Assembly (NCBI GenBank): GCA_973895155.1 | Contig: OZ316898.1 | Coordinates: 8,791,079 to 8,855,078, forward strand | DNA length: 64,000 nt | From: Marsupella aquatica | Taxonomy: Eukaryota > Plantae > Marchantiophyta | Direction: 5' to 3' | Shown here: piece after piece, positions 9,827 through 49,790 of the stretch | Numbering within the stretch: the first letter of the stretch is position 1 | How the letters are laid out: every line of letters begins with the position of its first letter | Notes under the pieces: model-generated | The model's database searches: none | What the model was told of the DNA's origin: nothing | The model's input: only the letters and a program-made list of their open reading frames with translations | Translations under genes and position numbers: made by a program

Positions 9827-10171
9827 TGTTAGGATTTACTCTTAGATCTAGAGTTACGACTGTATCGTAGTTAATGCTAACCTTAGTTGCAGACTTGGTT
9901 AGGTTAGTCATGCTGTGCACACTCTATAACCAAGCGGTGTTTGCTTGGAGAGTGGGAACTCAGGCTCATTGTTATGGAGCTAGTTGAGAGATAGAGAGAG
10001 CTTGCGCTGTGGATGCTTGGTATGGCCGGTCGGCCCAGAGTGCAGTAAAGCTCATGTGTGTTCTCGTGGACGTAGCCTCATGTGGAGGTGAACCACGTAT
10101 CTCTCTGTATCGACTCTTGTGCGTTGGATGGTTCATGGGGTTGCCGTTGCGATTGTCGTCTATGCTCAACA
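9827..10171 (+). repeat. 5' LTR of outer copia element
   Basis: TG...CA termini, followed by AT and the tRNA-iMet PBS; matches 22898-23242. Confidence 0.95.
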
Positions 10172-10785
10172 ATTGGTATCAGAGCATGCCTGGGAGGTGA
10201 CGAGGTTTTTTCGTGATGGTTTTCTAGCGTTCATTGTCGGTGTTGCATTTGCAGTTTTCTCGCATGAAACTTGAATGTGTGTGGCTGAGCGGATAGATTA
10301 GTGAGAGGGCTTTCTATCGATGTATAGAACTCACTGGTTGGTATCCGTTGTGTGGAGGAATTGGAGTTTGCGTCATTCAGGATTTATTCGTGTTCGACGG
10401 TGTTTCGGGGGAGAGACCAGAGCTTGTGTTTTTCAATGGTGTGAGTTGTGCGGTGCGGGAGGCGTCGCATGTTATAGCTCAAGTTGGAGGTTATGGCGAG
10501 CTGATCGTTTCAATAGCTGAGTTGCTGTCGAGTGGTTACCGAGTGCGTCGTGACGTGTGAAGGAGGCGTTCAGATTTTTTCACAGGCTATGGAGCTTGTT
10601 CCCATCTGAACCGGGTTACTCGTCGTCACGTCCGACTCGGAGGAAGAAATGCAAAGTGCTAGGGCTCAATGGAGAGATCGCGGCGAAGTGGTTGTTATGA
10701 GTCTGGGATTGGCACTTGACACGGAGTGAAAGCGACGTGACAAATTTTCTTTTCTTTCTTTTTTGAGCTTGCAGACTGTGCCGGT

Positions 10786-11242
10786 TGTTGGGTATTTACT
10801 CTTACGTCTAGGTTAGGTATGACGTGGTTGGTACAACAACGTGGGTTGGTACAACTACGTGGTTAGGTACAACTACGTGATTAGGTATAACTATGTGGTC
10901 AGGTACAACTACGTGATTAGGTACAACTATGTGGTTAGGTACAACTACGTGATTAGGTACAACTATGTGGTTAGGTACAACTAAGTTGCACACTATATCA
11001 TAAGAGGCATGTGTGCTTGGAGAGGTAGAACCAAGGCTCATTGTTATGGAGCCACTTGAGAGATAGGAAGAGCTTACACTGTGGAGACTCGGTATAGCCG
11101 ACGGGCTTAGAGTTCAGTAAAGCTCTCTTGTGTGTTCCCGTGGACGTAGCCTCAAGGAGGTGAACCACGTATCTCTTGTGTCGACTATTGTGCGTTGGAT
11201 GGTTCATGGGCTTGCCGTTGCGATCGTCGTCTATGCTCAACA
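10786..11242 (+). repeat. 5' LTR of inner copia element
   Basis: TGTTGGG...CAACA; near-identical copy at 16896-17352. Confidence 0.97.
10811..10986 (+). repeat. 18-bp tandem array (GGTTAGGTACAACTACGT / GATTAGGTACAACTATGT) in U3 of the inner 5' LTR; second copy at 16921-17096
   Basis: About 10 units; the last 7 are exact 18-mers alternating as a 36-bp dimer. Lies just upstream of a TATA-like CTATATCATAA. Confidence 0.95.
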
Positions 11243-11244
11243 AT

Positions 11245-11256
11245 TGGTATCAGAGC
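11245..11256 (+). promoter_or_regulatory. Primer binding site (tRNA-iMet) of inner element
   Basis: TGGTATCAGAGC two bases after the 5' LTR; the canonical plant iMet PBS. Confidence 0.95.
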
Positions 11257-12396
11257 ATGCTTGGGAGGTGACGTGTGTTCGTGACGGGATTTCATGACGG
11301 TTTTTCCAGTGTTGAGTGTTGGTGGATTTTCCAGAGTTCCATCGCATGGAACTTGGAGTTTATGGGCTCAACGGATAGATCAGGGCAAGAGCTTTCTAAC
11401 GGTGTGAAGAAATCGTTGAACGGAGCTCGTGGTGCAGAGAGATCTAAGTTTTCGTCGTTCTGGATTTTGTGAAGAAAGTTGGCAATCGACTCGGAGGGAG
11501 AAGCGTCAAGTGTTTTGACTCAACGGAGAGATTGAGGCAAGACGATTGTTTTTGAGTCCGGGATTGGCTCTTTGATGCAAAGAGGAAGGCTAAGCAAAAT
11601 CAATTACCTTGTTGGACTTGGTGACGGCACCAAGTGCAATTGATCAACATTCGTTGTTGACAAGGTACCATTTTTTTCTCTTTGAAAAACTGATTCGAAA
11701 TTGGCTATGGCAATTGAGAGAAATCTGTCATCTTTACCAATTTTTTTCTCCCTCGTTCTTTCCTCGTTTTGGGTGCTTCTTATATCGATCTTCATCGCCT
11801 CGGAGTCTAGTTTCCAAATCTGAAATCGGATCTTGATTTCGTCAAAACCCGAGTGAGATATCTTGCGTTTGGTGTCGAGGGGTACATTCTGCCGTGTGTA
11901 TTTTCTGCGCGCGCGACCAGATTTCGACGACGAAGGGTGGTAGGGGGTTTTGGGGGTTCGAGGACACATGTCAGCCCCTCGATTGTTCTTCCAAAATTCC
12001 CACAGGGCCTGTACAAGGGTCATAGAATATTCCAAAAAACCAGAGAGCTATTTTTTGACCGTCCGACAAAGATTTCATCCGCCGAACGGTAACTTTTTTG
12101 GTTATTTTTCGGCGAGGTCGTAGCCATTGAAGTTGGCAATGCAGCGCACCAATCACATCGCAATTCCGACAACGGGTTGTACTTGGTATTTCGGTTATTC
12201 CCTGAGGTGGTCAAAACGGGGGAGTTTCCCAAGGTTTTACCCACCTCGACCGAAATTTGAATAACTTTTCCGTCAAATTTTGATTTTGATTTTGGTTTTC
12301 AGTATTGGACTCCTAGCTTTGTGGGCTACGCGGCGGTGTTGAGTTTCGAGTTTTTTGAGAAGTTGTGAAAAACAACATTTTTTGTGACTTTCTCAT

Positions 12397-13431
12397 ATGA
12401 GTGATTCGGAGGAGTTTTTCGAAGACGTGGAACTTGAAGCACGAGGATCACCGCGGAGGTTTCAGGGGCAGAGAGAGGAGCAGGAGGAAGAGCACGTGAC
12501 ACCGATACCATCACCGGTGCGGCGTGTGGTGGAGGAAGCAGTACTACTACCGGAGCTCACGGTAAAGAAGAAGATGGGGACTTTCAAGCTTGGGGGACCC
12601 AAGTATGAAGTGACAAAGTATGATGGGCGCTCTGACTACTTGCTATGGGAGAAGCAGGTGAAGGGAGTGCTTTATGCGTCAGGGATGGGCCAACTGCTGA
12701 GCCCTCGTGAAGACGATGTTGATGAGAAACAATGGGACCGCATGCAGGAGCAGGGAGTGTGGTGTGTTACACTCTATCTCATGCCTCCCATCATCAAGCA
12801 GTTAGGTGCACATAAGGATTGCATGTCCTTGTTTGCGGAATTACAGAGCAAGTATCACCGCAAGGAGTTGTCGAACCGGCTCTACACTTCCTACAAACTG
12901 ATGAGTTTCAGGATGAAGGAATCTGGTACGAAGTTGCAAGACCATGTGGATGCTTTCAACGACATGGTCGTTGACTTGGAAAACCTTGGGGAGACTTTGA
13001 ATGATGAGACGAAGGCTCTGCAGCTTCTTAGTTCATTGCCTCCATCTTACCAGTCCCTATCACGAGTGTTGTTGCATCGTGATAGGGATACCATTTCATA
13101 CAATGACGTGATAAGTTCTCTGCTTAGTGATGATCTTCAGCAGAAGATGCACATCACGTCACAGCCTTCATCATCTGGTGCTGCCCTCAATGTTAACCGT
13201 GGGAGGAGTATGCAGCGACCAACTGGGGACCGTAGAACCCAGTTTAGATCTAAATCCAGATCTAAGTCCAAGGGTAAATCCCCTCAGAGGAGGCAGGTGA
13301 CATGTTGGAAGTGCAACCAAGTTGGACACTTCAAGCGAGACTGTAAGGGAAAGGCAGCGGAAACTTCATCGGCAAATGTGGCTAGGGCTGATGGAGAAGC
13401 TGATTTACTCAATGATGAGTATGTTTTATGA
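12397..13431 (+). CDS. gag: Copia Gag (capsid/UBN2-like region and CCHC zinc knuckle), 344 aa, ending at UGA
   Basis: KYDGRSDYLLW, HVDAFNDMVVDLENLG...LLSSLPPSY, and zinc knuckle CWKCNQVGHFKRDC. Confidence 0.95.
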   Translation: MSDSEEFFEDVELEARGSPRRFQGQREEQEEEHVTPIPSPVRRVVEEAVLLPELTVKKKMGTFKLGGPKYEVTKYDGRSDYLLWEKQVKGVLYASGMGQLLSPREDDVDEKQWDRMQEQGVWCVTLYLMPPIIKQLGAHKDCMSLFAELQSKYHRKELSNRLYTSYKLMSFRMKESGTKLQDHVDAFNDMVVDLENLGETLNDETKALQLLSSLPPSYQSLSRVLLHRDRDTISYNDVISSLLSDDLQQKMHITSQPSSSGAALNVNRGRSMQRPTGDRRTQFRSKSRSKSKGKSPQRRQVTCWKCNQVGHFKRDCKGKAAETSSANVARADGEADLLNDEYVL

Positions 13432-16400
13432 AGCCGGGGGTATGCCCTGTGCACGTCATCTAGGAGAGCAGATGATGTGTGGATTCTTGATTGTGCTTGC
13501 TCTTTTCATATTTGTTACATTCGTGAGTTTTTCAGTTCTTACTCTGTTTCAAACGGTTCAGTTCTGATGGGAAATGATCACTCCTGTCAAATTGAGGGAA
13601 TTGGGTCTGTGAAGATTCAAATGTTTGATGGCGCTGTGCGCACAGTGTCCGGAGTCAGGTATGTACCTGGCATGCGTAAGAATCTGATTTCACTCGGTGT
13701 GTTGGATTCAAATGGTCATCAATGGAGCGTTATTGATGGTGAACTTCAAGTCAGGTCGGGAGAGACAGTGATTTTGAAGGGGAGTAGACAAAAGAATTTG
13801 TATGTGTTACAGGGCAATACTGTATGTGGAGAGGCCAATGTAACCAAGTCTCACGAGGAGATGACTCAACTGTGGCATTCACGGCTAGGCCACATGAGTG
13901 AGAAGGGTTTGGCTATCTTACGGAAGAATGGACTCATTTCTGATTTGCAATCTTGTAAATTAGAGTTTTGTGAGCATTGCATTCTTGGAAAGCAGCATCG
14001 TCGTGCTTTTGGTGTTGGAACTCATCGTTCCAAAGCGGTTCTTGAGTACATATATAGTGACGTGTGGGGTCCATCCCCGACTCCCTCACACTCTGGAAAG
14101 TTGTACTATGTATCATTTATTGATGATTACTCAAGATTTGTGTGGATTTATTTCATGACGCATAAGTCTGATGTCTTGTCCATTTTTAAGAAGTGGAAGG
14201 CCCAGGTGGAGAATCAGACTGGAAACACGATCAAGTGTTTGGATACAAGGGTGAAGAGTCTGAGGTCAGACAATGGCGGGGAGTACACTTCAATGGAATT
14301 TGAAGAGTACTGTTCAGAACAGGGGATAACTCGCCATCTCACCACAGTTTATACTCCGCAGCAGAATGGTGTCGCTGAGAGGCTCAATCGGACATTGTTG
14401 GAGCGGTCACGGAGTATGTTGAGCCAATCAGGTTTACCACAAGAATTTTGGGCAGAAGCTGTCAATACCGCAGCTTATTTGGTAAATCTTTCTCCTTCTA
14501 GTGCTATCAATTTCAAAACGCCGTTTGAGATGCGCTATAAGCGGCAAGCAGACTATCATGGCTTGGTAATTTTTGGAAGTGATGCATATGCTCTCACACC
14601 AAAGCAGAATAGGACCAAGTTGGATCCTACCTCCAGGAAATGTGTTTTTCTTGGGTACCAGAGTGGTGTGAAAGCCTATAGGCTATGGGATCCTATTGCC
14701 TGTAAGCTCGTTGTCAGTAGGGATGTTTCCTTCAATGAATCCAGATTATTGAAGGAGGGGGAGAATACTCAGGTCTCCCGTACTGACAAAGGAAAATCTC
14801 CTATCCCGGATCTCGTTGAGGGGGAGATTGGTTATGAGGTGCATGACCGGAGAGAAGGAGTTGCTCCAATTATGGAGCTGGTTCCTGTGCCAGAGGAACC
14901 AGAGGAGTTTGTTGATGCTGGTGAGCAACAAGTGGATGCTGTTGAGCTTCAAATTGTACCAGCACACGCAGATCAACCGGAGTCATCGGCTAGAAGAACA
15001 TCTGGTCGCACTGTACGCGCTCCATCAAGGTATGGACAGTGGGTTGATTCATCTCAACTGCAAGAGGATGATTTTACAGCTGATGATGAGGGTGATCCGT
15101 TAATTTTGGAAGAAGGAGAACCTTCTTCATTTCATGAGGCAAGTGCTTCAAAAGAGAAGCAGAAGTGGACTGCAGCAATGCAAACGGAGATGCAGTCACT
15201 AAAGTACAACAAAACTTGGGAGCTTGTTAAGCTGCCTAAGGGTCAGCAAGTGGTGGACAACAAGTGGATTTACAAGCTGAAGGATAATTCCATAGGAGGT
15301 GGATCGAAGGTCTACAAGGCTAGATTGGTAGCAAAGGGATTCACACAAGAGAAAGGTGTGGATTACAATGAGGTCTTCTCACCAGTTGCTAAGTACTCTA
15401 CAATACGACTATTGTGTGTACTTGTTGTAATGTTTGGTCTGCTCCTAGATCAGATGGATGTTGTCACAGCTTTCCTCTATGGCACATTGGAAGAGGTGAT
15501 CTTCATGAGACAACCGCTAGGTTTTGTGAAGAGAGGACAGGAGGAATTGGTTTGCAGATTGCTGAAATCCTTGTATGGGTTGAAGCAGTCACCAAGACAG
15601 TGGAACAAGCGGTTTGACGATTGGATTCGGTCACAAGGTTTTCACAGAAGTGTATTTGACCCTTGTGTGTATTTGAAACCGGTGAAGAATGTTGTCTTTG
15701 GGTTCATTGTTTTAGTACTTTATGTGGATGACATGCTAATTGCAGCCAAGGATAGGTCTGAGATTGTTAAGCTCAAGGCACTGCTTAGTGCAGAGTTTAA
15801 GATGAAGGACTTAGGGCCAGCTAAGAGGATTTTGGGTATGGAGATCACTAGGGACTTGGAGGCTGGCAAGCTATGGTTGACGCAGAGCAGTTATGCGAGG
15901 AAGGTAATTGCAAGGTTCAACATGGAGAATAGCAAGCCAGTAAGTACCACGTTGGCTCCACACTTCAAGTTATCATCAGCGTTTTGTCCTACGGATGACA
16001 CAGAGAAGGGGTTGATGTCAAAGGTTCCATATGACAAGGCAGTGGGGAGTCTCATGTATTTGATGACTTGCACTAGACCTGATCTTGCCATGGCTATGGG
16101 CAAGGTGAGCAGGTACATGTCGAATCCAGGGAAGGTACACTGGGAAGCAGTGAAGTGGATTATCAGGTACTTGAAGGGTACCGTGGATCATGGTCTTTTA
16201 TTTGATGCGAATGCAAAGAATGCTAGATCATTGATTGGCTATGTAGATTCTGACTATGGACAAGATTTGGACCGAAGGAGATCAACAACAGGATACGTGT
16301 TCACACTTGGCGGTGGATGCATAAGTTGGAGGTCTACTTTGCAGAAGTATATTGCTCAGTCTACTACAGAAGCGGAGTATGTTGCAGCTGCGGAAGCAGC

Positions 16401-16704
16401 AAAGGAAGCGATTTGGTTGGATAGACTTATCACTGAAATGGGATTGTCACAGGGGAATGTGAAGCTCCATTGTGATAGTCAAAGTGCGCTCCACCTTGCT
16501 GTGAACCAGGTGATGGACAGCAGAGTGAAGCACATTGACGTCAGGTACCATTTTATCAGGCAGGCTGTGTCTGATAATTTGTTTGAGCTAGTCAAGATTG
16601 ATGGTAAACTCAACCCGGCTGACGCATTTACCAAAGTGATTCCTTTGGAGAGTTTCTCTAGACACCGTGACGTATTGCAGGTTTTGCAATTGCATCACAA
16701 GTAG
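13432..16704 (+). CDS. pol: Copia Pol (PR-IN-RT-RNaseH), open in the same frame immediately after the gag UGA
   Basis: PR WILDCACSFH. IN LWHSRLGH..CEHC, SDVWGP, RSDNGGEY, NGVAERLNR. RT QMDVVTAFL, LYVDDML. RH GYVDSDY, TEAEY, CDSQSA, NPADAFTK. No stop from 13432 to 16701. Confidence 0.95.
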   Translation, partial: SRGYALCTSSRRADDVWILDCACSFHICYIREFFSSYSVSNGSVLMGNDHSCQIEGIGSVKIQMFDGAVRTVSGVRYVPGMRKNLISLGVLDSNGHQWSVIDGELQVRSGETVILKGSRQKNLYVLQGNTVCGEANVTKSHEEMTQLWHSRLGHMSEKGLAILRKNGLISDLQSCKLEFCEHCILGKQHRRAFGVGTHRSKAVLEYIYSDVWGPSPTPSHSGKLYYVSFIDDYSRFVWIYFMTHKSDVLSIFKKWKAQVENQTGNTIKCLDTRVKSLRSDNGGEYTSMEFEEYCSEQGITRHLTTVYTPQQNGVAERLNRTLLERSRSMLSQSGLPQEFWAEAVNTAAYLVNLSPSSAINFKTPFEMRYKRQADYHGLVIFGSDAYALTPKQNRTKLDPTSRKCVFLGYQSGVKAYRLWDPIACKLVVSRDVSFNESRLLKEGENTQVSRTDKGKSPIPDLVEGEIGYEVHDRREGVAPIMELVPVPEEPEEFVDAGEQQVDAVELQIVPAHADQPESSARRTSGRTVRAPSRYGQWVDSSQLQEDDFTADDEGDPLILEEGEPSSFHEASASKEKQKWTAAMQTEMQSLKYNKTWELVKLPKGQQVVDNKWIYKLKDNSIGGGSKVYKARLVAKGFTQEKGVDYNEVFSPVAKYSTIRLLCVLVVMFGLLLDQMDVVTAFLYGTLEEVIFMRQPLGFVKRGQEELVCRLLKSLYGLKQSPRQWNKRFDDWIRSQGFHRSVFDPCVYLKPVKNVVFGFIVLVLYVDDMLIAAKDRSEIVKLKALLSAEFKMKDLGPAKRILGMEITRDLEAGKLWLTQSSYARKVIARFNMENSKPVSTTLAPHFKLSSAFCPTDDTEKGLMSKVPYDKAVGSLMYLMTCTRPDLAMAMGKVSRYMSNPGKVHWEAVKWIIRYLKGTVDHGLLFDANAKNARSLIGYVDSDYGQDLDRRRSTTGYVFTLGGGCISWRSTLQKYIAQSTTEAEYVAAAEAAKEAIWLDRLITEMGLSQGNVKLHCDSQSALHLAVNQVMDSRVKHIDVRYHFIRQAVSDNLFELVKIDGKLNPADAFTKVIPLESFSRHRDVLQVLQLHHK

Positions 16705-16895
16705 AGTTTTCTTAAACATTCATTGTAATTACTGATATATGCTCTTCCTCATTCCTATGTATTAGGCTACGGCTTAGTTCTGGTTTGCTCTAGTTAGAGA
16801 GGGAAACCGGTTTGGTTTCTGTCCAGAACTTCCCGCTGAGGGATCATATACATTGGCAGTATTACTCTCCCCTAGACCAGAGTCAAGGGGAAGAT

Positions 16896-17352
16896 TGTTG
16901 GGTATTTACTCTTACGTCTAGGTTAGGTATGACGTGGTTGGTACAACAACGTGGGTTGGTACAACTACGTGGTTAGGTACAACTACGTGATTAGGTACAA
17001 CTATGTGGTCAGGTATAACTACGTGATTAGGTACAACTATGTGGTTAGGTACAACTACGTGATTAGGTACAACTATGTGGTTAGGTACAACTAAGTTGCA
17101 CACTATATCATAAGAGGCATGTGTGCTTGGAGAGGTAGAACCAAGGCTCATTGTTATGGAGCCACTTGAGAGATAGGGAGAGCTTACACTGTGGAGACTC
17201 GGTATAGCCGACGGGCTTAGAGTTCAGTAAAGCTCTCTTGTGTGTTCCCGTGGACGTAGCCTCAAGGAGGTGAACCACGTATCTCTTGTGTCGACTATTG
17301 TGCGTTGGATGGTTCATGGGCTTGCCGTTGCGATCGTCGTCTATGCTCAACA
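16896..17352 (+). repeat. 3' LTR of inner copia element
   Basis: Follows the PPT AAGGGGAAGA(T); followed by TSD CCGGT. Confidence 0.97.
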
Positions 17353-18384
17353 CCGGTGCAATTTGGCTACTTTTCCTGTAGACGGTGTTCACTTTGCTTG
17401 TGAAAAGCGGCAACGGCCAGGTTTGTAACACGACCAAAATTTGCTTTTAAGGTTAATTTTTTGGTTTAAGGTGGTCTAAACACCCTGTTTTGGGTGTATA
17501 CCGTGTGTGTATACACACACAATATTGGTCGCTTGACCCCGCCCTTGTGACTCCCTCATACATCGTCACTCCCTCCTGAGTACTCAACCGTGACTGTAGC
17601 TGAGGCGGACCCTGTAGCGCCCTTCTGCGCATTTTGTGCCGCCCCACACCGCACCGGCAGCCGCAACCCTCCCTCCCCATACGCACCTGTTTGCCCTTAG
17701 TCCCGCGCCCGGCCCTTTTGACACCGGTTGCCACTTCGCGACGCCGGCTGCCATCCTCTCTCCTGTATTCCCCGGTTGCGTACGAAGCCGCTCGACGCCC
17801 CTGCGTACCCTGTATGCCCTTGTACTCTACGTACACGGACACGCGTTTTTAAGGCATATTTTTGTTTAGGGGCCATTACAAGCCTTTTAAGGGCCATTTT
17901 TTGGTTTTTTCCAGGCAGCTCTTTCTATTGGCTGTCCCGGGCCCGATGACCCGGCGTTTTAACCGCTTGGACAGGGGGAACGGCCCCCTGTGAGACCTGT
18001 TGGACTGTGCAGGAATATTCCCAAAAAACAGAGAGCTATTTTTTGGCTGTCTGACAAAGATTACGTGCGCCGAACGGTAACTTTTTTGGTTCTTTTTTGG
18101 CGAGGTCGTAGCCATTGAAGTTAGCAACGCGGCGCATCAATTGAATTGCGATTCCGATGACGGGTTATACTTGGCATTTTGGTTATTCCGTGAGGTGGTC
18201 AAAATGGGGCAATTTCTCAAGGTTTACCCACCCTGACCAAAATTTGAATAACTTTTCTGTCAAATTTTGATTTCAATTTTGATTTTCAGTGTTGAACTCC
18301 TAGCTTCGTGGGCTACGAGGCGGTGTTTAGTTTTGAGATTTTTGAGAAGTTGTGAAAAACGATATTTTTTTGTGATTTTCTCAT

Positions 18385-21300
18385 ATGAGTGATTCGGAGG
18401 AGATTTCTGAAGACGTGGAACTTGAAGCAAGAGGATCACCGCGGCGGTTTGAGGGGGAGAGAGAGGACCAGGAGGAAGAGCACGTGACACCGGTACCATC
18501 ACCGGTGCGCCATGTGGTGGAGGAAGCAGTACTACTACCGGAGCTCACGGTAGTGCCAAAGAAGAAGATGGGACATTCAAGCTTGGGGGACCCAAGTATG
18601 AAGTGACAAAGTATGATGGGCGCTCTGACTACTTGCTATGGGAGAAGCAGGTGAAGGGAGTGCTCTATGCGTGAAGGATGGGCCAACTGTTGAGCCCTCG
18701 TGAAGACAATGTTGATGAGAAACAATGGGACCGCATGCAGGAGCAGGGAGTGTGGTGTGTTACACTCTATCTCATGCCTCCCATCATCAAGCAGTTGGGT
18801 GCACATAATGACTGCATGTCCTTGTTTGTAGAATTGCAGAGCAAGTATCACCGCAAGGAGTTGTTAAACCGATCTATACTTCCGACAAACTGATGAGTTT
18901 CAGGATGAAGGAATCCGGTACGAAGTTGCAGGACCATGTGGATGCTTTCAACGACATGGTCGTTGACTTGGAAAACCTTGGGGAGACTTTGAATGATGAG
19001 ACAAAGGCTCTGCAGCTTCTCAATTCATTGCCTCCATCTTACCAATCCCTATCACGAGTGTTGTTGCATCGTGATAGGGATACCATTTCATACAATGACG
19101 TGGTAAGTTCTCTGCTTAGTGATGATCATCAGCAGAAGATGCACATCACGTCACAGCCTTCATCATCTGGTGTTGCCCTCAATGTTAACCGTGGGAGGAG
19201 TATGCAGCGACCAACTGGGGACCGTAGAACCCAGTTTAGATCTAAATCCAGATCTAAGTCCAGACGTAAATCCCCTCAGAGGAGGCAGGTGACATGTTGG
19301 AAGTGCAATCAAGTTGGACACTTCAAGCGAGACTGTAAGGGAAAGACAACGAAAACTTCATCGGCAAATGTGGCTAGGGCTGATGGAGAAGCTGATTTAC
19401 TCAATGATGAGTATGTTTTATGAAGCCGGGGGTATGCCCTGTGCACGTCATCTAGGAGAGCAGATGATGTGTGGATTCTTAATTGTGCTTGCTCTTTTCA
19501 TATTTGTTACATTTGTGAGTTTTTCAGTTCTTATTTTGTTTCAAACGGTTCAGTTCTGATGGGAAATGATCACTCCTGTCAAATTGAAGGAATTGGGTCT
19601 GTGAAGATTCAAATGTTTGATGGCGCTGTGTGCACAGTGTCCGGAGTCAGATATGTACCTGGCATGCGTAAGAATCTGATTTCACCCGGTGTGTTGGATT
19701 CAAATGGTCATCAATGGAACGTTATCGAGAACGTTATTGATGGTGACCTTCAAGTCAGGTTGGGAGAGACAGTGATTTTGAAGGGAAGCAGACAAAAGAA
19801 TTTGTATGTGTTGCAGGGCAATACTGTATGTGGAGAAGCCAATGTAACCAAGTCTCACGAGGAGATGACTCAATCACATTCACGGCTAGGCCACATGAGT
19901 GAGAAGGGTTTGGCTATCTTACGGAAGAATGGACTCATCTCTGATTTGCAATCTTGTAAATTGGAGTTCTATGAGCATTGCATTCTTGGAAAGAAGCATC
20001 GTCGTGCTTTTGGTGTTGGAACTCATCGTTCCAAAGCGGTTCTTGAGTACATATATAGTGACATGTGGGGTCCATCCCCAACTCCCTCACACTCTGGAAA
20101 GTTGTACTATGTATCATTTATTGACGATTACTCAAGATTTGTGTGAATTTATTTCCTGACGCATAAGTTTGATGTCTTGTCCATTTTTAAGAAGTGGAAG
20201 GCCCAGGTGGAGAATCAGACTGGAAACACGGTCAAGTGTTTGGATACAAGGGTGAAGAGTCTGAGGTCAGACAACGGTGGGGAGTACACTTCAGTGGAAT
20301 TTGAAGAGTACTGTTCAGAACAGGGGATAACTCGCCATCTCACCACAGTTTATACTCTGCAGCAGAATGGTGTCGCTGAGAGGCTCAATCAGACACTGTT
20401 GGAGCGGTCACGGAGTATGTTGAGCCAATCAGGTTTACCACAAGAATTTTGGGCAGAAGCTGTCAATACCGCAGCTTATTTGGTAAATCTTTCTCCTTCA
20501 AGTGCTATCAATTTCAAAACACCGTTTGAGATGCGCTATAAGCGGCAAGCAGACTATCATGGCTTGGTAGTTTTTGGAAGTGATGCATATGCTATCACAC
20601 CAAAGCAAAATAGGACCAAGTTGGATCCTACCTCCAAGAAATATGTTTTTCTTGGGTATCAGAGTGGTGTGAAAGCCTATAGGCTATGGGATCCTATTGC
20701 TTATAAGCTCGTTGTTAGTAGGGATGTTTCCTTCAATGAATCCAGATTATTGAAGGAGGGGGAGAATACTCAGGTCTCCCATACTGAGAAAAGAAAATCT
20801 CCTATCCCAGATCTCATTGAGGGGGAGATTGGTCATGAGGTGCATGACCGGAGAGAAGGAGTTGCTCCAATTATGGAGTTGGTTCTTTTGCCAGAGGAAC
20901 CAGAGGAGTTTGTTGATGCTGGTGAGCAGCAAGTGGATGCTACTGAGTTTCAAATTATACCAGCACATGCAGATCAACCGGAGTGATCGGCTAGAAGAGC
21001 ATCTGATCACACTGTACGCGCTCCACCAAGGTATGGACAGTGGGTTGATTCATCTCAATTGCAAGAGGAGGACTTTATTACTGATGATGAGGGTGACGCG
21101 TTGATTTTGGAAGAAGGAGAACCTTCTTCATTTCATGAAGCAAGTGCTTCAAAGGAGAAGCGGGAGTGGGCTGTAGCAATGCAAACGGAAATGCAATCAT
21201 TGAAGGACAACAAAACTTGGGAGCTTGTCAAGCTACCTCAGGGATAGCAAGTGGTGGACAGCAAGTGGATATACAAGCTAAAGGATCAGTCCACAAGAGG

Positions 21301-22704
21301 TGGATCAAAGGTCTACAAGGCTAGGTTGGTAGCCAAGGGATTCACACAGGAAAAACATGTGGATTACAATGAGATCTTCTCACCAGTTGCTAAGTACTCA
21401 ATAATACTGCTATTGTGTGTGCTTGTTGTTATGTTTGGTCTGCTGCTAGATCAGATGGATGTTGTCACAGCTTTCCTCTATGGCACCTTGGAAGAGGTGA
21501 TCTTCATGAGACAGCCGCTAGGTTTTGTGAAGAAAGGGCAAGAGGATTTGGTTTGCAGATTGCTGAGATCCTTGTACGGTTGAAGCAGTCACCAAGATAG
21601 TGGAATAAGCGGTTTGATGATTGGATCCGTGCACAAGGCTTTCACAGGAGTGTGTTTGACCCATGTGTGTATCTTAAACCGGTGAAGAATGTTGTTTTTG
21701 GGTTCATTGTTTTAGAATTTTATGTGGATGACATGCTTATTGCGGCCAAGGATAGGTCTGAGATTGTTAAGCTCAAGGCATTGCTTAGTGCAGAGTTTAA
21801 GATGAAGGACTTAGGGCCAACTAAGAGAATTTTGGGTATGGAGATCACTAGGGACTTGAAGGCTGGTAAGCTGTGGTTGACGTAGAGAAGTTATGCGAGG
21901 AAGGTAATTGCAAGGTTCAACATGGGGGATAGCAAGCCAGTAAGTACCCCGTTGGCTCCACACTTCAAGTTGTCATCAGCTTTCTGTCTTACGGATGACA
22001 TAAAGAAGGAGTTGATGTCAAAGGTTCCATATGACAAGGCAGTGGGGAGTCTCATGTATTTGATGACTTGCACTAGACCTGATCTTGCCATGGCTATGGG
22101 CAAGGTGAGCAGGTACATGTCGAATCCAGGGAAGGTACACTGGGAAGCAATGAAGTGGATTATTTGGTATTTAAAGGGTACTGTGGATCATGGTCTATTG
22201 TTTGATGCACATGCTGATAATGCTAGATCATTGATGGGCTATGTAGATGCTGACTATGCATAGGATCTAGATCGGAGGAGGTCAACAACAGGTTATGTGT
22301 TCACACTTGGAGGTGGATGCATAAGTTGGAGGTCTACTTTACAGAAGTGTATTGCTCAATCTACTACAGAAGCGAAATATGTTGCAGTTGCGGAAACAAC
22401 AAAGGAAGCAATTTGGTTGGATAGACTTATCACTGAGATGGGATTGCCATAGGGGAATGTGAAGCTCCATTGTGATAGTCAGAGTGCACTCCACCTTGCT
22501 GTGAACCAGGTGATGGACAGCAGAGTGAAGCACATCGATGTCAGGTACCATTTTATCAGGCAGGCTGTGTCTGATAATATGTTTGAGCTAGTCAAGATTG
22601 ACGGTAAACTCAACCCGGCTGACGCTTTTACCAAAGTGATTCCTTTGGAGAGTTTTTCTAGACACCGTGATGCGTTGCAGGTTTTGCAATTGCCTCACAA
22701 GTAG
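18385..22704 (+). pseudogene. Disrupted gag-pol of outer copia element
   Basis: Collinear and highly similar to 12397-16704, but with frameshifts (near 18570, 18870, 21578), premature stops (e.g. 18672, 20144, 20984, 21245, 21883, 22261, 22449) and PR catalytic D to N. Confidence 0.95.
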
Positions 22705-22897
22705 GGTTACTTAACATTTTCAGAGTAGAAATTGAGATATGCTTTTGCTCATTCCTTGTATAGGCTACGACTTAGTTTTGGTTTACTCTCGTATAAAGAG
22801 GGAAAAACCGGTTTGGTTTTTCTTTGCAGAACTTCCCGCTGAGCAATCATATTGGTAGCAGTCTTTACCCTCCCCTAGACCAGAGTCAAGGGGAGAT

Positions 22898-23242
22898 TGT
22901 TAGGATTTACTCTTAGGTCTAGAGTTACGACTGTACTGTAGTTAATGCTAACCTTAGTCGCAGACTTGGTTAGGTTAGTCATGCTGTGCACACTCTATAA
23001 CCAAGCGGTGTTTGCTTGGAGAGTGGGAACTCAGGCTCATTGTTACGGAGCTAGTTGAGAGATAGAGAGAACTTGCTCTATGGATGCTTGGTATGGCCGG
23101 TCGGCCTAGAGTGCAGTAAAGCTCATGTGTGTTCCCGTGGACGTAGCCTCATGTGGAGGTGAACCACGTATCTCTCTGTATCGACTCTTGTGCGTTGGAT
23201 GGTTCATGGGCTTGCCGTTGCGATTGTCGTCTATGCTCAACA
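22898..23242 (+). repeat. 3' LTR of outer copia element
   Basis: TGTTAGG...CAACA after the PPT; matches 9827-10171. Confidence 0.95.
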
Positions 23243-37164: not shown

Positions 37165-40100
37165 TCACCCAGTGTTCCGCATGCCTGCAGCAATCCCGTT
37201 AATAGTGATGAGAAGGGCATCTCTAAGCTTCGGGTTATTTTCATCTCGTCTCAATCTTTGGAGGATCTCCACCTGAAGCATGTTGATCGGGTTTAAGTAC
37301 GCCAACCTACTCTCTATCAAGCGCCTTAGAGTCTTGTTGTTCTCGGACAATTTGTGGTGGCCACTCACTTCGAGGACAGAACTCTCTGTCGTAAAGAAAG
37401 CTTCGCGGAGCTCCACTCCGAGGTGCTGTCGTTCAGGCCCAACAAGCACTTCGTCGTAGTGTTTTGCAATGGGTATATCGGCCTTGGCAAGAATCATCTC
37501 AATGAGATCAATTGTGGACTGGAAAAATGGCCATTCCCTGTACATTGCTTGCAGTTCGTCCTTGTTCCCCCTGCCAATGACCGCTTGCAAACCTGCCCCA
37601 ACTCCCAGCCAAGCAGGCAAGACGAAGCGAGTTTGTGTCCAGGCAAATATCCACGGGATGGCCCGAAGCTGTTGCACACCGCCAGTTTTCTTCCGTCGAG
37701 CGGGTCGACTTCCGATGTTGAGGTTGCCCAATTCTGCTTCGGGGGTTGCTTCATGGAAGTACTGGAGAAAGTGCTCATTCTGAAACACGATGCTCCTGTA
37801 GTGCTGACAACTAACCTCGGATATGTGATCCATGATGTTTCTCCAGCTGGCAGACCGGGGAGGATCTGGTGGGTGCAAAGTTGCAAGAAGGACAGCTGTG
37901 GTGTAGATCTCTAGCTGGCGCACTGAAGTTTGGGCAAGACCGAACTTGGCCTGCACCATTTCTCCCTGCTCTGTGACACGAAGTGAACCCTGGGAGCAAC
38001 CACATCAAAACATATGAAGAGCTCTCTGTGCAGCAGGGAATGTAAAAAACACAACTGACCGGATTACGAATTTGATGGGTTAAAATCCCTAGGTAAGACT
38101 CATCCTGCCTAGAAGGACATTGGACCATCATCGGGCAAGTAGCTAGATGTGTGCTCGGGTCCTACTGGAGAGATGAATGCCAAGTGCAGCTAAGCACGAA
38201 TCCTGTCTCCTACTAATCCAACTATGCTGAACTATCGTTTACAGTAACAGAATTGTTTCATCTTCGAAGTTCCGCATCCTCCTTGTCTTACCATTACTAC
38301 ACAAAGAAAATCCAAGTACATAGCATGTGCGCAACAGAATGAATTACATACATCAATTTGATAGCAAAACCACTTTGTCAGGAAAAGCTAAGTCTCAGTT
38401 GTTTGCTCACAACCTGAGCATGAGTGAAGAGTAATTAGAAGGATTGCCCTCACCATAACAGAGCCGGGTGGTTGTGACTGGACAGCAAGATACATAGGTC
38501 CACCACCGCGCCCAACACTGCCACCTCTGCCATGGAAGAGAGTGACTTTGATATTGAACTCCCGGCATGCAGTTACTACAGCCTCCTGGGCTTTGTAGAG
38601 CTCCCATGCAGCGGTGAACCGTCCAGCATCTTTACCAGAGTCTGAATAGCCAAGCATGACCTGCAATTCCGGGATTTTCAAATTAGCAGGTAAGAGAAGT
38701 GATCACATGAAACAAAATGCTCTAACATTTTAAAGTAAAGATTGAGGAAGCCATCAAATCTTCCTGGGCCTAGATTATTTTCATACTTTCCGAAAAAAGG
38801 AGCTTATATATCTGCGAGTACGATATCTTCGTGCTCAATAAATGGTCGGAAATACCTCTTGGTGGCTGTTGTGATTCTCGATTAAATGCTCCTTGTACCA
38901 ATCAATACTTAAAAGCTTGCGAACAACATTTCCTGCGTCCCGTAAATCTTTGACAGTTTCAAAGAGAGGCACAACGCGCAACCTGTAACACAAGCAGAAC
39001 ACAAGAACACACGCAAGAAAGTTAATATGGTACATAAGAAAACCGTAATAAAATTGTAGGTGCAGAAGTTTGAAAATATCGGGTGCCGGAAGAGGCATCT
39101 CATATTCGGGAACTGAATTGCTCTCTGAAATGTGAAAAGTACAGATGTTTACAATACTCAGATGCAACCAATCATTCAAACTACGTTGGAATGAAATCCA
39201 AACTAGGATATTTCCTTTTATCAGAGGGCATATAGTCAGCTGTTTATTCATGAAGACAAGACTTAAAATCGTGCAAGACGCTTACGAGGTGCCTGGGCAC
39301 GGTTTGCCAAGCTCTCCGCTAACAGTAAGACATGCTTCCTTTTGAAGTAGCTCCACCGCGAGTACATCACTAGCCTGTTGTACGCATCCGAACGTGAGCA
39401 CCAGTTTATCAGCTTAAATTACCTTGCAGAGAAGAGACAACTACAAACCATCGAAACCTTTCTCTTCCGAATAGTGACTGGGTTTGAGTGAACAACCTCG
39501 GAGGCCATAGATATAATGTATGCCTCAAGTGAATTCGAACCCAGCTCCGCAGCCACGCGGAACGTGTTTAACACCTCTCTAACCTCATCCGAAACCTGCG
39601 TTTACGACTTGTTTGTCAAAACAGTAACTAGTGGAACACCGAAAATTGGAACCCTACAGAACTGGAATTCACGACAATTCAATGAACACACACAGGGTTA
39701 ACAGCTTAAGGATGAGGCTACCCTGGGTTGGAGAGTGAGCACAAATCATAAATTTAGGCTGCTAACGAAATACTTTAATCGAATTTCACATACCTATCTG
39801 CAAGTAGTAACAATTATTTATGGGCCGCTCTGATTGGTCGGGTCACTCCTTACTGTCTAATAGCAAATCCTTAGGGCCGAATACTCTGTATATATTTATT
39901 AGAAAAACGAGCGCAATTGGAGGCACTGGAGGCTATCGTCATTGCGATGCACACACCTCTATTGTCGGAGGAATAAGAGGTCTCTTTCCTTTCAACTCCG
40001 TGACCAAGAATTTGAGCTTTTTCTCTTCGTCCCACTCACTATAGGTTCCCATATCCAAAAACTCCGTGATAGCATTCAAGGCTTCAGCATGCTTGTCGGA

Positions 40101-48508: not shown

Positions 48509-49790
48509 CTAGCTCAATACCCGTGCGTTGCACACAAGATGTCGTCACGGCCAAGATGTCATTGAGAACAAAAGAGGTCATGTCGGCCAAGAGGTTGTTG
48601 AGAAGAAAGATGTCGTGTTGCCCAAGATGTTGTTGAGAACAAAAGATGTCGTGTCGGCCAAAATGTCGGTGATAACAAAAGATGTCATGTCGACCAAGAG
48701 GTCGTTCAGAACAAAAGATGTCGTGTCGACCAAGATGTCATGTCGGCCATGAATTGGTTGAGAAAAAAAATGTCGTGTCGACCAAGAGATTGTTGAGAAA
48801 AATGTTGTATTGGCCAAGAGGTTGTTGAGAAAAATGATGTCGTGTCGGCCAAGATCTCATTGATAAAAAAGACGTCGTATCGGCCAATAAGTCATTGAGA
48901 CAAAGGATGTCGTGTTGGCAAAGAAGTTGTTGAGAAAAAAATGTCATGTTGGCCAAGACGTTGTTGAGAGAAAAGAAGTTGTGTCGGGCAAGACATCACT
49001 GAGAAAAAAGATGTTGTGTCGGCCAAGACGTCATTGAGAAAACAGATGTCGTGTTGGCCAAGACATCGTTGAGGAAAAATACCCGTGCATTGCACAAAAG
49101 ATTTTGTGTCGCCCAAAATGTAAAAGATGTCATCATGTGAAAGATGGCGTTAAGAAAAAGTTGTCATTTTGCCAAACTAAGTTATTGTGAAGTAAATGAT
49201 GTTATAAGTAAAAAGGTGTTGTTTCACCCAATATGTCCTTAATATGTGAAAGATAGCTCAATACCCGTGCGTTGCACAAAATATGATGTTAAGAAAAAAT
49301 ATGTCATTTCGCCAAAGATGCTGTCAACAAAAAAGGTGTCATGTTGCCAAAGATTTTGTTAAGAAAAAATATATTGTGTTGCCAAAGATTTCGTTAAGGA
49401 AAAAGATGTCATGTTGCCAAAGATGTCGTTAAGAAAAAAGATGTCATGTTGCCAAAGACGTCGTTAAGAAAAAAGATATCATGTTGCCAAAGATGTCGTT
49501 AATATGTGAAAGATGTTGTGAAGTAAGAAGATGTCATTAAGAACTATGATGTCGTGTTGCCAAAGGTGTTGTGAAGAAAAAATGTTCTTATGTGAAAAAT
49601 GTCGTGAAATAAAAAGATGTTGATACGCCAAAGATGTCTTTATGTCTAAGATGTCGTCAGGTAAAAGAAGATGTTTCACCAAAGATGTTATTAAGTATTT
49701 TTTGTTAAGTACAAAATGGTCGATAAGTAAAGGATGTCGTTAGACAAAGATGCAAGTTGTGAAGTAAAAGATGTTCTTAAGTACAATTGA
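48509..49790 (-). mobile_element. Helitron-like element with AAGATGTC-core minisatellite arrays and repeated 3'-end motifs; right boundary unresolved
   Basis: Minus strand ends GTGCAACGCACGGGTATTGAG-CTAG|T at 48509. The motif recurs at 49078-49097 and 49253-49278. Arrays of ~33-35-bp units (AAAGATGTCGTGTCGGCCAAGATGTCGTTGAGAA-like). Confidence 0.6.

What the first reader, a model, noticed from the sequence alone, without database searches (positions are those of the whole stretch)
13361..13510. Plant copia family whose gag and pol are split by one conserved in-frame UGA: candidate stop-codon readthrough system
Seen: gag ends ...DEYVL-TGA (13429-31), and the same frame continues SRGYALCTSSRRADDVWILDCACSFH into an uninterrupted Pol. 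The first in-frame ATG (13567) lies after the protease catalytic Asp, so ordinary AUG reinitiation cannot make active PR. The independently inserted older copy has the same TGA (19421-23) within a 128-nt identical block (13361-13488 = 19353-19480). The young copy has near-identical LTRs and no other lesion, so the stop is a family trait rather than decay. Known: most plant copia elements encode gag-pol as one ORF and make excess Gag by splicing. In-frame stop suppression is known from gammaretroviruses (UAG) and the Candida copia element Tca2 (UGA). The context UGA-AGC-CGG does not match the standard UGA-CUA/CGG or UAG-CAR-YYA signals. Inference: this lineage sets its Gag:Pol ratio by an uncharacterised recoding signal. 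The alternative is that both copies are non-autonomous and are mobilised in trans.
Basis: partly seen in the sequence, partly recalled or inferred. Interest (0 to 1): 0.85.

Follow-up and report, generated by a model that had tools for sequence, protein, structure and literature searches.

The report
Liverwort copia lineage with gag-UGA-pol
A young, otherwise intact jumping gene belongs to a lineage, likely liverwort-wide, that ends its coat gene with one stop codon directly in frame with its enzyme genes, so the enzymes are likely made when ribosomes occasionally read through that stop, a trick known from fungal and animal retroelements but, in the papers I could search, not described for this kind of element in land plants.

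Summary
Confirmed and extended. The young Ty1/copia element (10786-17352) has intact gag (12397-13431) and pol (13432-16704) in one frame, split by one TGA. The first ATG lies beyond the protease Asp. The stop is lineage-wide. Of 31 related Gag proteins that keep their zinc knuckle, 26 (52-84% identity, including Marchantia and Calypogeia) end at the same position and none enters the protease. Fused gag-pol relatives reach at most 35% identity. A metagenome relative at 71% nucleotide identity has the same TA-TGA-AGC…GTATGCCCT junction, with dN/dS 0.29 after the stop. No substitution at the stop reaches 1% in a run holding very many copies. Decay is unlikely. Best reading: programmed UGA readthrough (about 0.65), inferred, with no RNA or ribosome data. 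The context resembles the 8-nt-spacer, long-loop stem class, but the candidate stem is not significant. Rivals are another bypass or splicing. The 128-nt identical block proves little. The layout is known (Tca2, Tj1, MuLV), and this scan noted it before in diatom and fungal copia, not in land-plant copia.

The parts
10786..11242 (+). 5' LTR of the young element (TG...CA, 457 nt); TSD CCGGT at 10781-10785
   Evidence: 3 differences from the 3' LTR
11245..11256 (+). primer-binding site of the tRNA-Met type (label recalled)
   Evidence: sequence
12397..13431 (+). gag ORF, 344 aa, zinc knuckle, acidic tail ending YVL
   Evidence: P0121 and P0122 start at the same Met
13429..13431 (+). in-frame TGA between gag and pol
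13427..13448 (+). conserved junction context: A at -1, UGA-AGC, variable spacer positions 13436 and 13439, invariant 13440-13448
   Evidence: L001 alignment; variant table; 7 of 8 third positions kept against 153 of 327 elsewhere, P=0.023
13432..16704 (+). pol frame, 1090 codons: PR (Asp 13489), IN, RT, RNase H; first ATG 13567
13804..13820 (+). candidate distal partner of 13440-13454 (predicted long-loop stem; unproven)
   Evidence: not significant against synonymous shuffles of pol
16885..16894 (+). polypurine tract
   Evidence: sequence
16896..17352 (+). 3' LTR of the young element; TSD CCGGT at 17353-17357
9827..23242 (+). older, decayed copy of a sister subfamily that hosts the young one in its 5' leader; LTRs 9827-10171 and 22898-23242 with 11 differences
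   Evidence: 8 further stops in the aligned frame, plus frameshifts
19421..19423 (+). the same TGA in the older copy

Best explanation
A Ty1/copia lineage, likely liverwort-wide, ends gag with a conserved in-frame stop directly before pol, and likely makes Pol by programmed readthrough of that UGA on the full-length RNA. Shown: the single in-frame TGA, intact frames on both sides, the same Gag end point across the clade, and purifying selection on the codons after the stop. Inferred: most ribosomes stop and release Gag, while a minority insert an amino acid at UGA and make Gag-Pol. Protease would then be cut free about six codons later, at the hydrophobic pair that sits 10 residues before the protease Trp, as in fused relatives. 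Speculative: the stimulator is the -1 A plus an RNA stem that begins after an 8-nt spacer at 13440 and pairs about 360 nt downstream. This would replace the splicing route that flowering-plant copia elements use to make excess Gag.
For: 26 of 31 knuckle-bearing Gag hits (of 45) end at the homologous site and 0 of 31 enter the protease. The search of longer proteins gave 1 hit, at 28% (weak evidence by the tool's own note). None of 148 fused Gags exceeds 35% identity, and the 30 closest fall on the other side of a 99% SH-like branch. L001 (71% nt) keeps TGA in frame, with 0 stops in the 45 codons before the first ATG, while both other frames are closed. dN/dS is 0.29 for 78 post-stop codons and 0.17 for gag against L001, and 0.24 for pol between the two window copies. 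Run X1 (335 contigs laid) shows no substitution at 1% or more at 13429-33 or 13440-48, while 8 neighbouring positions vary, five of them third positions of the gag-pol frame. The X7 contig has 1 difference over 13387-13485, placed at 13400, out of 19 over 13306-13485. The near-cognate starts CTG 13447, ACG 13453 and GTG 13477 are not kept in L001. UGA is the leakiest stop, and xxA-stop...xxG with an 8-nt spacer and long-loop stem is described for plant viruses and kelch, whose mosquito context is UGA-AGC.
Against: There is no expression evidence of any kind. +4 A is ranked the least leaky base after a stop in one cited ordering, and the site lacks CUA, CGG or CAR-YYA directly after the stop. 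The candidate stem is not significant for the invariant core (98 of 200 and 21 of 200 synonymous shuffles were as stable). A stronger rival pairing at 14050-14085 exists in the young copy, the local hairpin is not supported in L001, and no covariation test was possible. The codon identity (UGA) and the in-frame link to pol are seen in DNA only for the two window copies, L001 and a few run contigs; the 26 proteins show where Gag ends, not which stop is used or what follows. For X13 and X15 the retained stop is read from absent rows in a table that hides changes near ends. In Tca2 the junction alone gave no readthrough in yeast.
Confidence: 0.65

Rival explanations
1. The stop is programmed but bypassed by something other than decoding: ribosome hopping, non-AUG reinitiation, or a trans-acting or element-wide mechanism, as argued for Tca2.
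For: Tca2, the only tested copia with this layout among the papers I read, needed more than its junction. The context is not a standard leaky one. A Tyr-x-Leu motif stands on both sides of the stop (YVL*SRGYAL; YAL*SQKYAL), and the TGA overlaps an ATG in another frame.
Against: Near-cognate start codons before the Asp are not conserved in L001. The overlapping ATG and the ATG-ATG at 13472 are in frames that close within about 35 codons. The Leu codons before and after the stop differ in the window (TTA, CTG), which does not suit matched-codon hopping. The codons directly after the stop keep S-x-x-Y-A-L.
Confidence: 0.17
2. Inverted splicing: unspliced RNA makes Gag, and a minor spliced RNA drops the stop to make Gag-Pol, as in Ogre elements.
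For: The stop and the next two bases read TGAAG, close to the plant 3' splice consensus TGYAG (consensus recalled), with a U-rich stretch before it, and 13432-33 is invariant. A CAG at 13469-71 is also kept in L001. Ogre uses such an intron, and plant copia elements do splice here.
Against: The only phase-matched GT donors shared with L001 that score 6 of 9 or more in either sequence are 12603 and 12618 (phase 2), which would remove nearly all of Gag, and 12806 (phase 1). The GT at 13419, which would give a 45-nt in-frame intron, is absent from L001. No gene model joining this Gag to an intact protease was found. No joint was listed, but those runs are contigs of unknown kind.
Confidence: 0.13
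3. The stop is a founder mutation of a non-autonomous family whose pol is not translated and which is moved by an intact partner.
For: Non-autonomous copia families with in-frame stops are common. RNase H between the two window copies has dN/dS 2.9 and protease 0.84. The protease motif is D-C-A.
Against: The same end point is kept across Gags 52-84% identical, from Marchantia and Calypogeia. No close fused partner was found. Pol is fully open in the young copy and shows purifying selection overall. The high RNase H value is best read as decay of the old copy, which has 8 further stops.
Confidence: 0.05

Closest known systems
Tca2 (pCal) of Candida albicans, Ty1/copia (PMC2194720; abstract and Background read)
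   Same: Copia element with gag-UGA-pol in one frame; an 8-nt purine-rich spacer is described after the stop; the mechanism is unresolved.
   Different: Fungal. A local pseudoknot is proposed there, while no conserved local structure was found here. No relationship was tested; this clade's nearest fused relatives are plant Tnt1-like elements, which points to a separate origin (inferred).
Tj1, Tcry1, Tosmo1-3 of fission yeasts (10.1101/2022.12.06.519325; passages read)
   Same: Conserved in-frame TGA between gag and pol with conserved flanking bases; the stop is reported as essential for Tj1 transposition.
   Different: Ty3/gypsy, with the standard leaky context GAA-TGA-CT. Here the context is TA-TGA-AGC.
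Structure-assisted UGA readthrough of tobra-, peclu-, furo- and pomoviruses, alphaviruses and kelch (PMC3159437; passages and section 13 read)
   Same: A at -1, G at +9, 8-nt spacer, possible long-loop stem; UGA-AGC is reported for mosquito kelch.
   Different: The viral cases have CGx or CUA after the stop, and stems backed by compensatory changes. Here the stem is only predicted and not significant.
Moloney murine leukaemia virus gag-UAG-pol (passages in PMC2194720 and PMC3159437)
   Same: In-frame stop sets the Gag:Pol ratio; 8-nt spacer.
   Different: UAG-G with a compact pseudoknot; animal retrovirus.
Tork (Tnt1/Tto1) and other single-ORF plant copia, EVD and BARE1 (PMC6317226, PMC5580714; passages read)
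   Same: Domain order, tRNA-Met-type PBS, 5-bp TSD; Pol 48-54% identical over PR-IN to most listed hits.
   Different: They encode one ORF and make Gag by splicing that creates a stop. This clade has the stop in the genome. The REXdb survey text has 0 mentions of Marchantia.
SIRE1 and Sireviruses (PMC2829016; passages read)
   Same: Plant copia elements with unusual recoding; SIRE1 uses stop suppression.
   Different: SIRE1 suppresses the stop between pol and env; Sirevirus gag/pol variants are described as +1 shifts with an inverted repeat.

Membership tests
Ty1/copia LTR retrotransposon | LTRs with TG...CA ends, TSD, PBS, PPT | tested here: met
Ty1/copia LTR retrotransposon | domain order Gag-PR-IN-RT-RH | tested here: met
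   for Gag, PR, IN, RT; RNase H by recalled motifs located
Tork lineage (REXdb) | RT/RH/IN phylogeny with reference elements | not testable with these tools
   no REXdb references on hand; hits are named Tnt1-like, a label also used loosely
Tork lineage (REXdb) | single gag-pol ORF as in most plant copia groups | tested here: not met
Bryco lineage | half-tRNA-Met PBS | tested here: inconclusive
   PBS looks like the usual full tRNA-Met type (recalled); Bryco definition; no tRNA sequence was compared
gag-stop-pol retroelements (Tca2, Tj1, MuLV type) | one in-frame stop between intact gag and pol, conserved among relatives | tested here: met
gag-stop-pol retroelements (Tca2, Tj1, MuLV type) | Pol made from the gag-stop-pol RNA by readthrough | not testable with these tools
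   no RNA holder listed; no reporter or ribosome data
Type I and II readthrough motifs | UAG-CAR-YYA, or UGA-CUA/CGG directly after the stop | tested here: not met
   UGA-AGC; motif definitions
Extended 3' stem class (Firth 2011) | A at -1, G at +9, raised synonymous conservation after the stop | tested here: met
   one divergent pair plus run variants, P=0.023, chosen after the fact
Extended 3' stem class (Firth 2011) | conserved stem with compensatory changes | tested here: inconclusive
   L001 ends before the distal arm

The most novel reading that the evidence does not exclude
An ancient, undescribed land-plant copia clade, shared by complex-thalloid and leafy liverworts, swapped the splicing strategy of plant copia elements for ribosomal readthrough. 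It uses a UGA-AGC signal with an 8-nt spacer and a long-range RNA stem reaching about 360 nt into pol, a kelch-like recoding cassette working on plant ribosomes and testable in Marchantia.
Probability: 0.25. Interest if true: 0.75.

Novelty: new variant of a known kind. Interest (0 to 1): 0.52.

Why it matters
Plant copia elements are described as single-ORF elements that do not use translational recoding and make excess Gag by splicing (PMC5580714). A whole clade with liverwort members that keeps a genomic stop at the Gag end is an exception. It gives a natural readthrough candidate with a non-standard context in a lineage that includes a genetic model plant, and it offers a second system for the unsolved Tca2 question. 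It also matters for annotation: intact-element pipelines will count these copies as broken, and gene finders start Pol after the protease Asp, as in the Riccia model P0001.

Tried and rejected
No whole genome is held for this window, so copies could not be counted directly. No RNA holder was listed; this says nothing about expression. The four joints are low-depth, non-GT-AG and in runs of unknown kind. Scans of viral contigs found no relative; the 5 pattern matches encode neither Gag nor Pol. The genome-contig scan gave 5 distant loci, one of them an ordinary fused copia fragment. Rfam gave 0 matches over 10700-17400. The single-sequence protease model was unusable (pLDDT 36), and the PDB search gave only 3 weak matches to designed repeat proteins. 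The first tree run did not finish and was rebuilt by FastTree on 85 rows. Rejected: the 128-nt block as evidence; the 45-nt intron 13419-13463; splicing from the GT at 13440 behind the overlapping ATG (no acceptor before the Asp restores the frame, and any intron would be 32 nt or less); a net insertion at the junction (knuckle-to-protease distance 45 against a median of 44 in 157 fused proteins); the local hairpin 13451-13480 as a conserved signal (7 of 300 shuffles as stable for the young copy, but 241 of 300 for L001); the 14050-14085 pairing (best in the young copy, 1 of 300 shuffles, but weaker by 8 kcal/mol in the old copy and by 22 with the L001 arm). Gao et al. 2003 and Havecker et al. 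2004 are not held.
Full report
Observation. The young element runs from 10786 to 17352, with 457-nt LTRs that differ at 3 sites, a CCGGT target duplication, a primer site and a polypurine tract. It sits in the 5' leader of an older sister copy (9827-23242, LTRs with 11 differences). Gag (12397-13431) ends YVL-TGA, and the same frame stays open for 1090 codons. Pfam places copia Gag and the zinc knuckle before the stop, and protease, integrase and RT after it. The protease Asp is at 13489 and the first ATG at 13567. The older copy has the same TGA in a 128-nt identical block. That block is weak evidence: a 139-nt run exists elsewhere, and 51% of permutations give a run of 128 or more somewhere in gag-PR-IN, 4.7% over the stop.

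Is the stop a lineage trait? The Gag search gave 45 hits among proteins of 156-499 aa. Of these, 14 lack a recognisable knuckle (fragments, gene models, one distant fused protein) and were set aside. Of the other 31, 26 end at the position homologous to the window's stop, at 52-84% identity. Two end earlier, two run on into unrelated sequence, and one (P0139) matches the L001 contig, where an earlier TAG cuts the frame and the DNA shows the TGA at the homologous site. None enters the protease. Named members are Calypogeia fissa and Marchantia polymorpha. The best Pol hit is a Riccia fluitans model at 63% that begins after the protease Asp. The host is therefore likely a liverwort; earlier unchecked notes on this genome say the same. 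The search of 500-2000 aa proteins gave 1 hit, at 28%, which the tool calls weak evidence. In the exhaustive search (best 150 listed) four more Gags end the same way, and two protease fragments at 85-88% begin just after the stop. Of 148 fused Gag-protease proteins with 190 or more aligned residues, none exceeds 35% identity. A FastTree of 85 rows puts 31 stop-ending Gags and 24 unscorable fragments or models on one side of a 99% SH-like branch, and the 30 closest fused Gags on the other (midpoint root, no bootstrap, no topology test). These proteins show where Gag ends, not which stop codon is used or the frame of pol.

DNA evidence. The metagenome scan confirmed 1 of 22 candidates, L001, 71% identical in nucleotides. 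It reads YAL*SQKYALST...WILDSAC, with TGA in frame. The 45 codons between the stop and the first ATG hold no stop in L001, 26 of the 45 residues are the same, and both other frames are closed. dN/dS against L001 is 0.17 for gag and 0.29 for 78 codons after the stop. Between the window copies it is 0.28 for gag and 0.24 for pol; protease (0.84) and RNase H (2.9) run against this and likely reflect decay of the old copy, which has 8 more stops. Of 24 runs listed, 22 hold part of the element, under seven organism codes plus air and biocrust metagenomes; I laid 6. In X1, 335 contigs fall on 13385-13495. Eight positions vary at 1% of depth or more (13423, 13425, 13428, 13434, 13436, 13439, 13449, 13455), five of them third positions in the gag-pol frame, and none at 13429-33 or 13440-48. 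The X7 contig has one difference over 13387-13485, at 13400, against 19 over 13306-13485, and an X3 contig is identical over 13150-13579. X13 and X15 contigs at about 85% show no row at the stop, but only 4 of 12 and 2 of 11-13 differences are listed, so this is weaker. One search hid 75 of its 115 variant rows. Contig depth is not a copy number, and contigs drop rare variants.

Mechanism. A selected in-frame stop before a selected pol needs a bypass. AUG reinitiation loses the Asp, and the near-cognate starts before it are not kept in L001. Splicing stays possible, because TGAAG resembles a plant acceptor (consensus recalled), but the shared phase-matched donors would remove most of Gag, and the donor of a 45-nt in-frame intron is absent from L001. 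Readthrough needs the fewest assumptions. UGA is the leakiest stop and a -1 A helps, although +4 A is unfavourable (passages). Around the stop, 7 of 8 third positions are kept against 153 of 327 elsewhere (P=0.023, chosen after the fact; about 5% of 330 sliding windows do as well). Firth et al. describe xxA-stop-CGx-xxx-xxG with an 8-nt spacer and a long-loop stem in plant viruses, and a similar stem in kelch, whose mosquito context is UGA-AGC (passages and section 13). Here A at -1 and G at +9 are kept, and 13440-13454 can pair with 13804-13820. That pairing survives in the old copy (-26.8 against -27.8 kcal/mol) and in a cross-test with the L001 arm (-21.1). It ranks in the best 0.4-1% of positions, but it is not significant against synonymous shuffles of pol (21 of 200 for 12 nt, 98 of 200 for the 9-nt core). 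A longer window prefers a different partner, and L001 ends before the distal arm. The stem is a lead only. The knuckle-to-protease spacing is ordinary (45 against a median of 44), and the hydrophobic pair after the stop lies 10 residues before the protease Trp, the commonest spacing in fused relatives (44 of 151 scored). This suggests that the protease N-terminus is cut just after the stop (inferred).

Comparison. Gag-stop-pol is known from Tca2 (abstract and Background), where the junction alone gave no readthrough in yeast. It is also known from Tj1 and Tosmo (passages) and MuLV. Plant copia elements are described as single-ORF and spliced (passages). The REXdb survey notes two-ORF Bianca and Ogre with spacers and has 0 mentions of Marchantia (passages). 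Sireviruses show +1 layouts and SIRE1 suppresses the stop before env (passages). Passages of the Apopellia genome, wheat and diatom papers did not describe this clade; the diatom paper allows one stop or frameshift between gag and pol. From recall only, rice RIRE2 (gypsy) and Kamikaze also have a stop there; the two papers concerned are not held. Ten searches (listings only unless named above) found no report of a liverwort or other land-plant copia with a conserved gag-pol stop. The library lacks most subscription journals, and I read no supplements; the REXdb Additional file 5 on ORF layouts could bear on this. The scan's own notes hold gag-stop-pol copia from diatoms, fungi and unnamed hosts, and a readthrough candidate in a gypsy element of this genome; look-ups by sequence found nothing like this element.

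Verdict. The feature is real, lineage-wide and selected. It is a new variant of a known strategy: readthrough 0.65, other bypass 0.17, splicing 0.13, non-autonomous decay 0.05. Interest 0.52.

Noticed in passing
window 13489-13497: The protease motif reads D-C-A in the young copy and in two 85-88% relatives (P0172, P0179), D-S-A in L001; the old copy has Asn for the Asp.
   Followed up: partly
window 14236-14259: About 8 extra residues just before the second catalytic Asp motif of integrase, present in both window copies and absent from the relatives shown.
   Followed up: no
window 12380-16900 against 18368-22900: Synonymous divergence is about 0.09 in gag and IN but 0.25 in RT, and the LTRs and leaders differ more (70-87%), which suggests recombination between subfamilies.
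   Followed up: partly
window 10814-10987 and 16924-17096: The young LTR carries a short tandem array of about 17-nt units that the older LTR lacks.
   Followed up: no
window 11243-12396: The 5' leader is 1154 nt with 8 ATG triplets; a site near 12000 is predicted to pair with the post-stop core as well as the pol site does.
   Followed up: no
window 37165-38004 (-): Exon of a phosphoenolpyruvate carboxylase gene (Pfam PEPcase, E 8e-113).
   Followed up: no
window 48535-49606: Degenerate tandem array with a 35-nt period.
   Followed up: no
L002 1-2371: A contig filed in a Corynebacterium assembly at low coverage is a plant-type copia gag-pol fragment, likely contamination.
   Followed up: partly
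run X3 on window 13150-13579: One contig identical to the young copy at depth 110, in a run whose two sister runs hold next to none of the element; possibly carry-over of the family's commonest variant.
   Followed up: no
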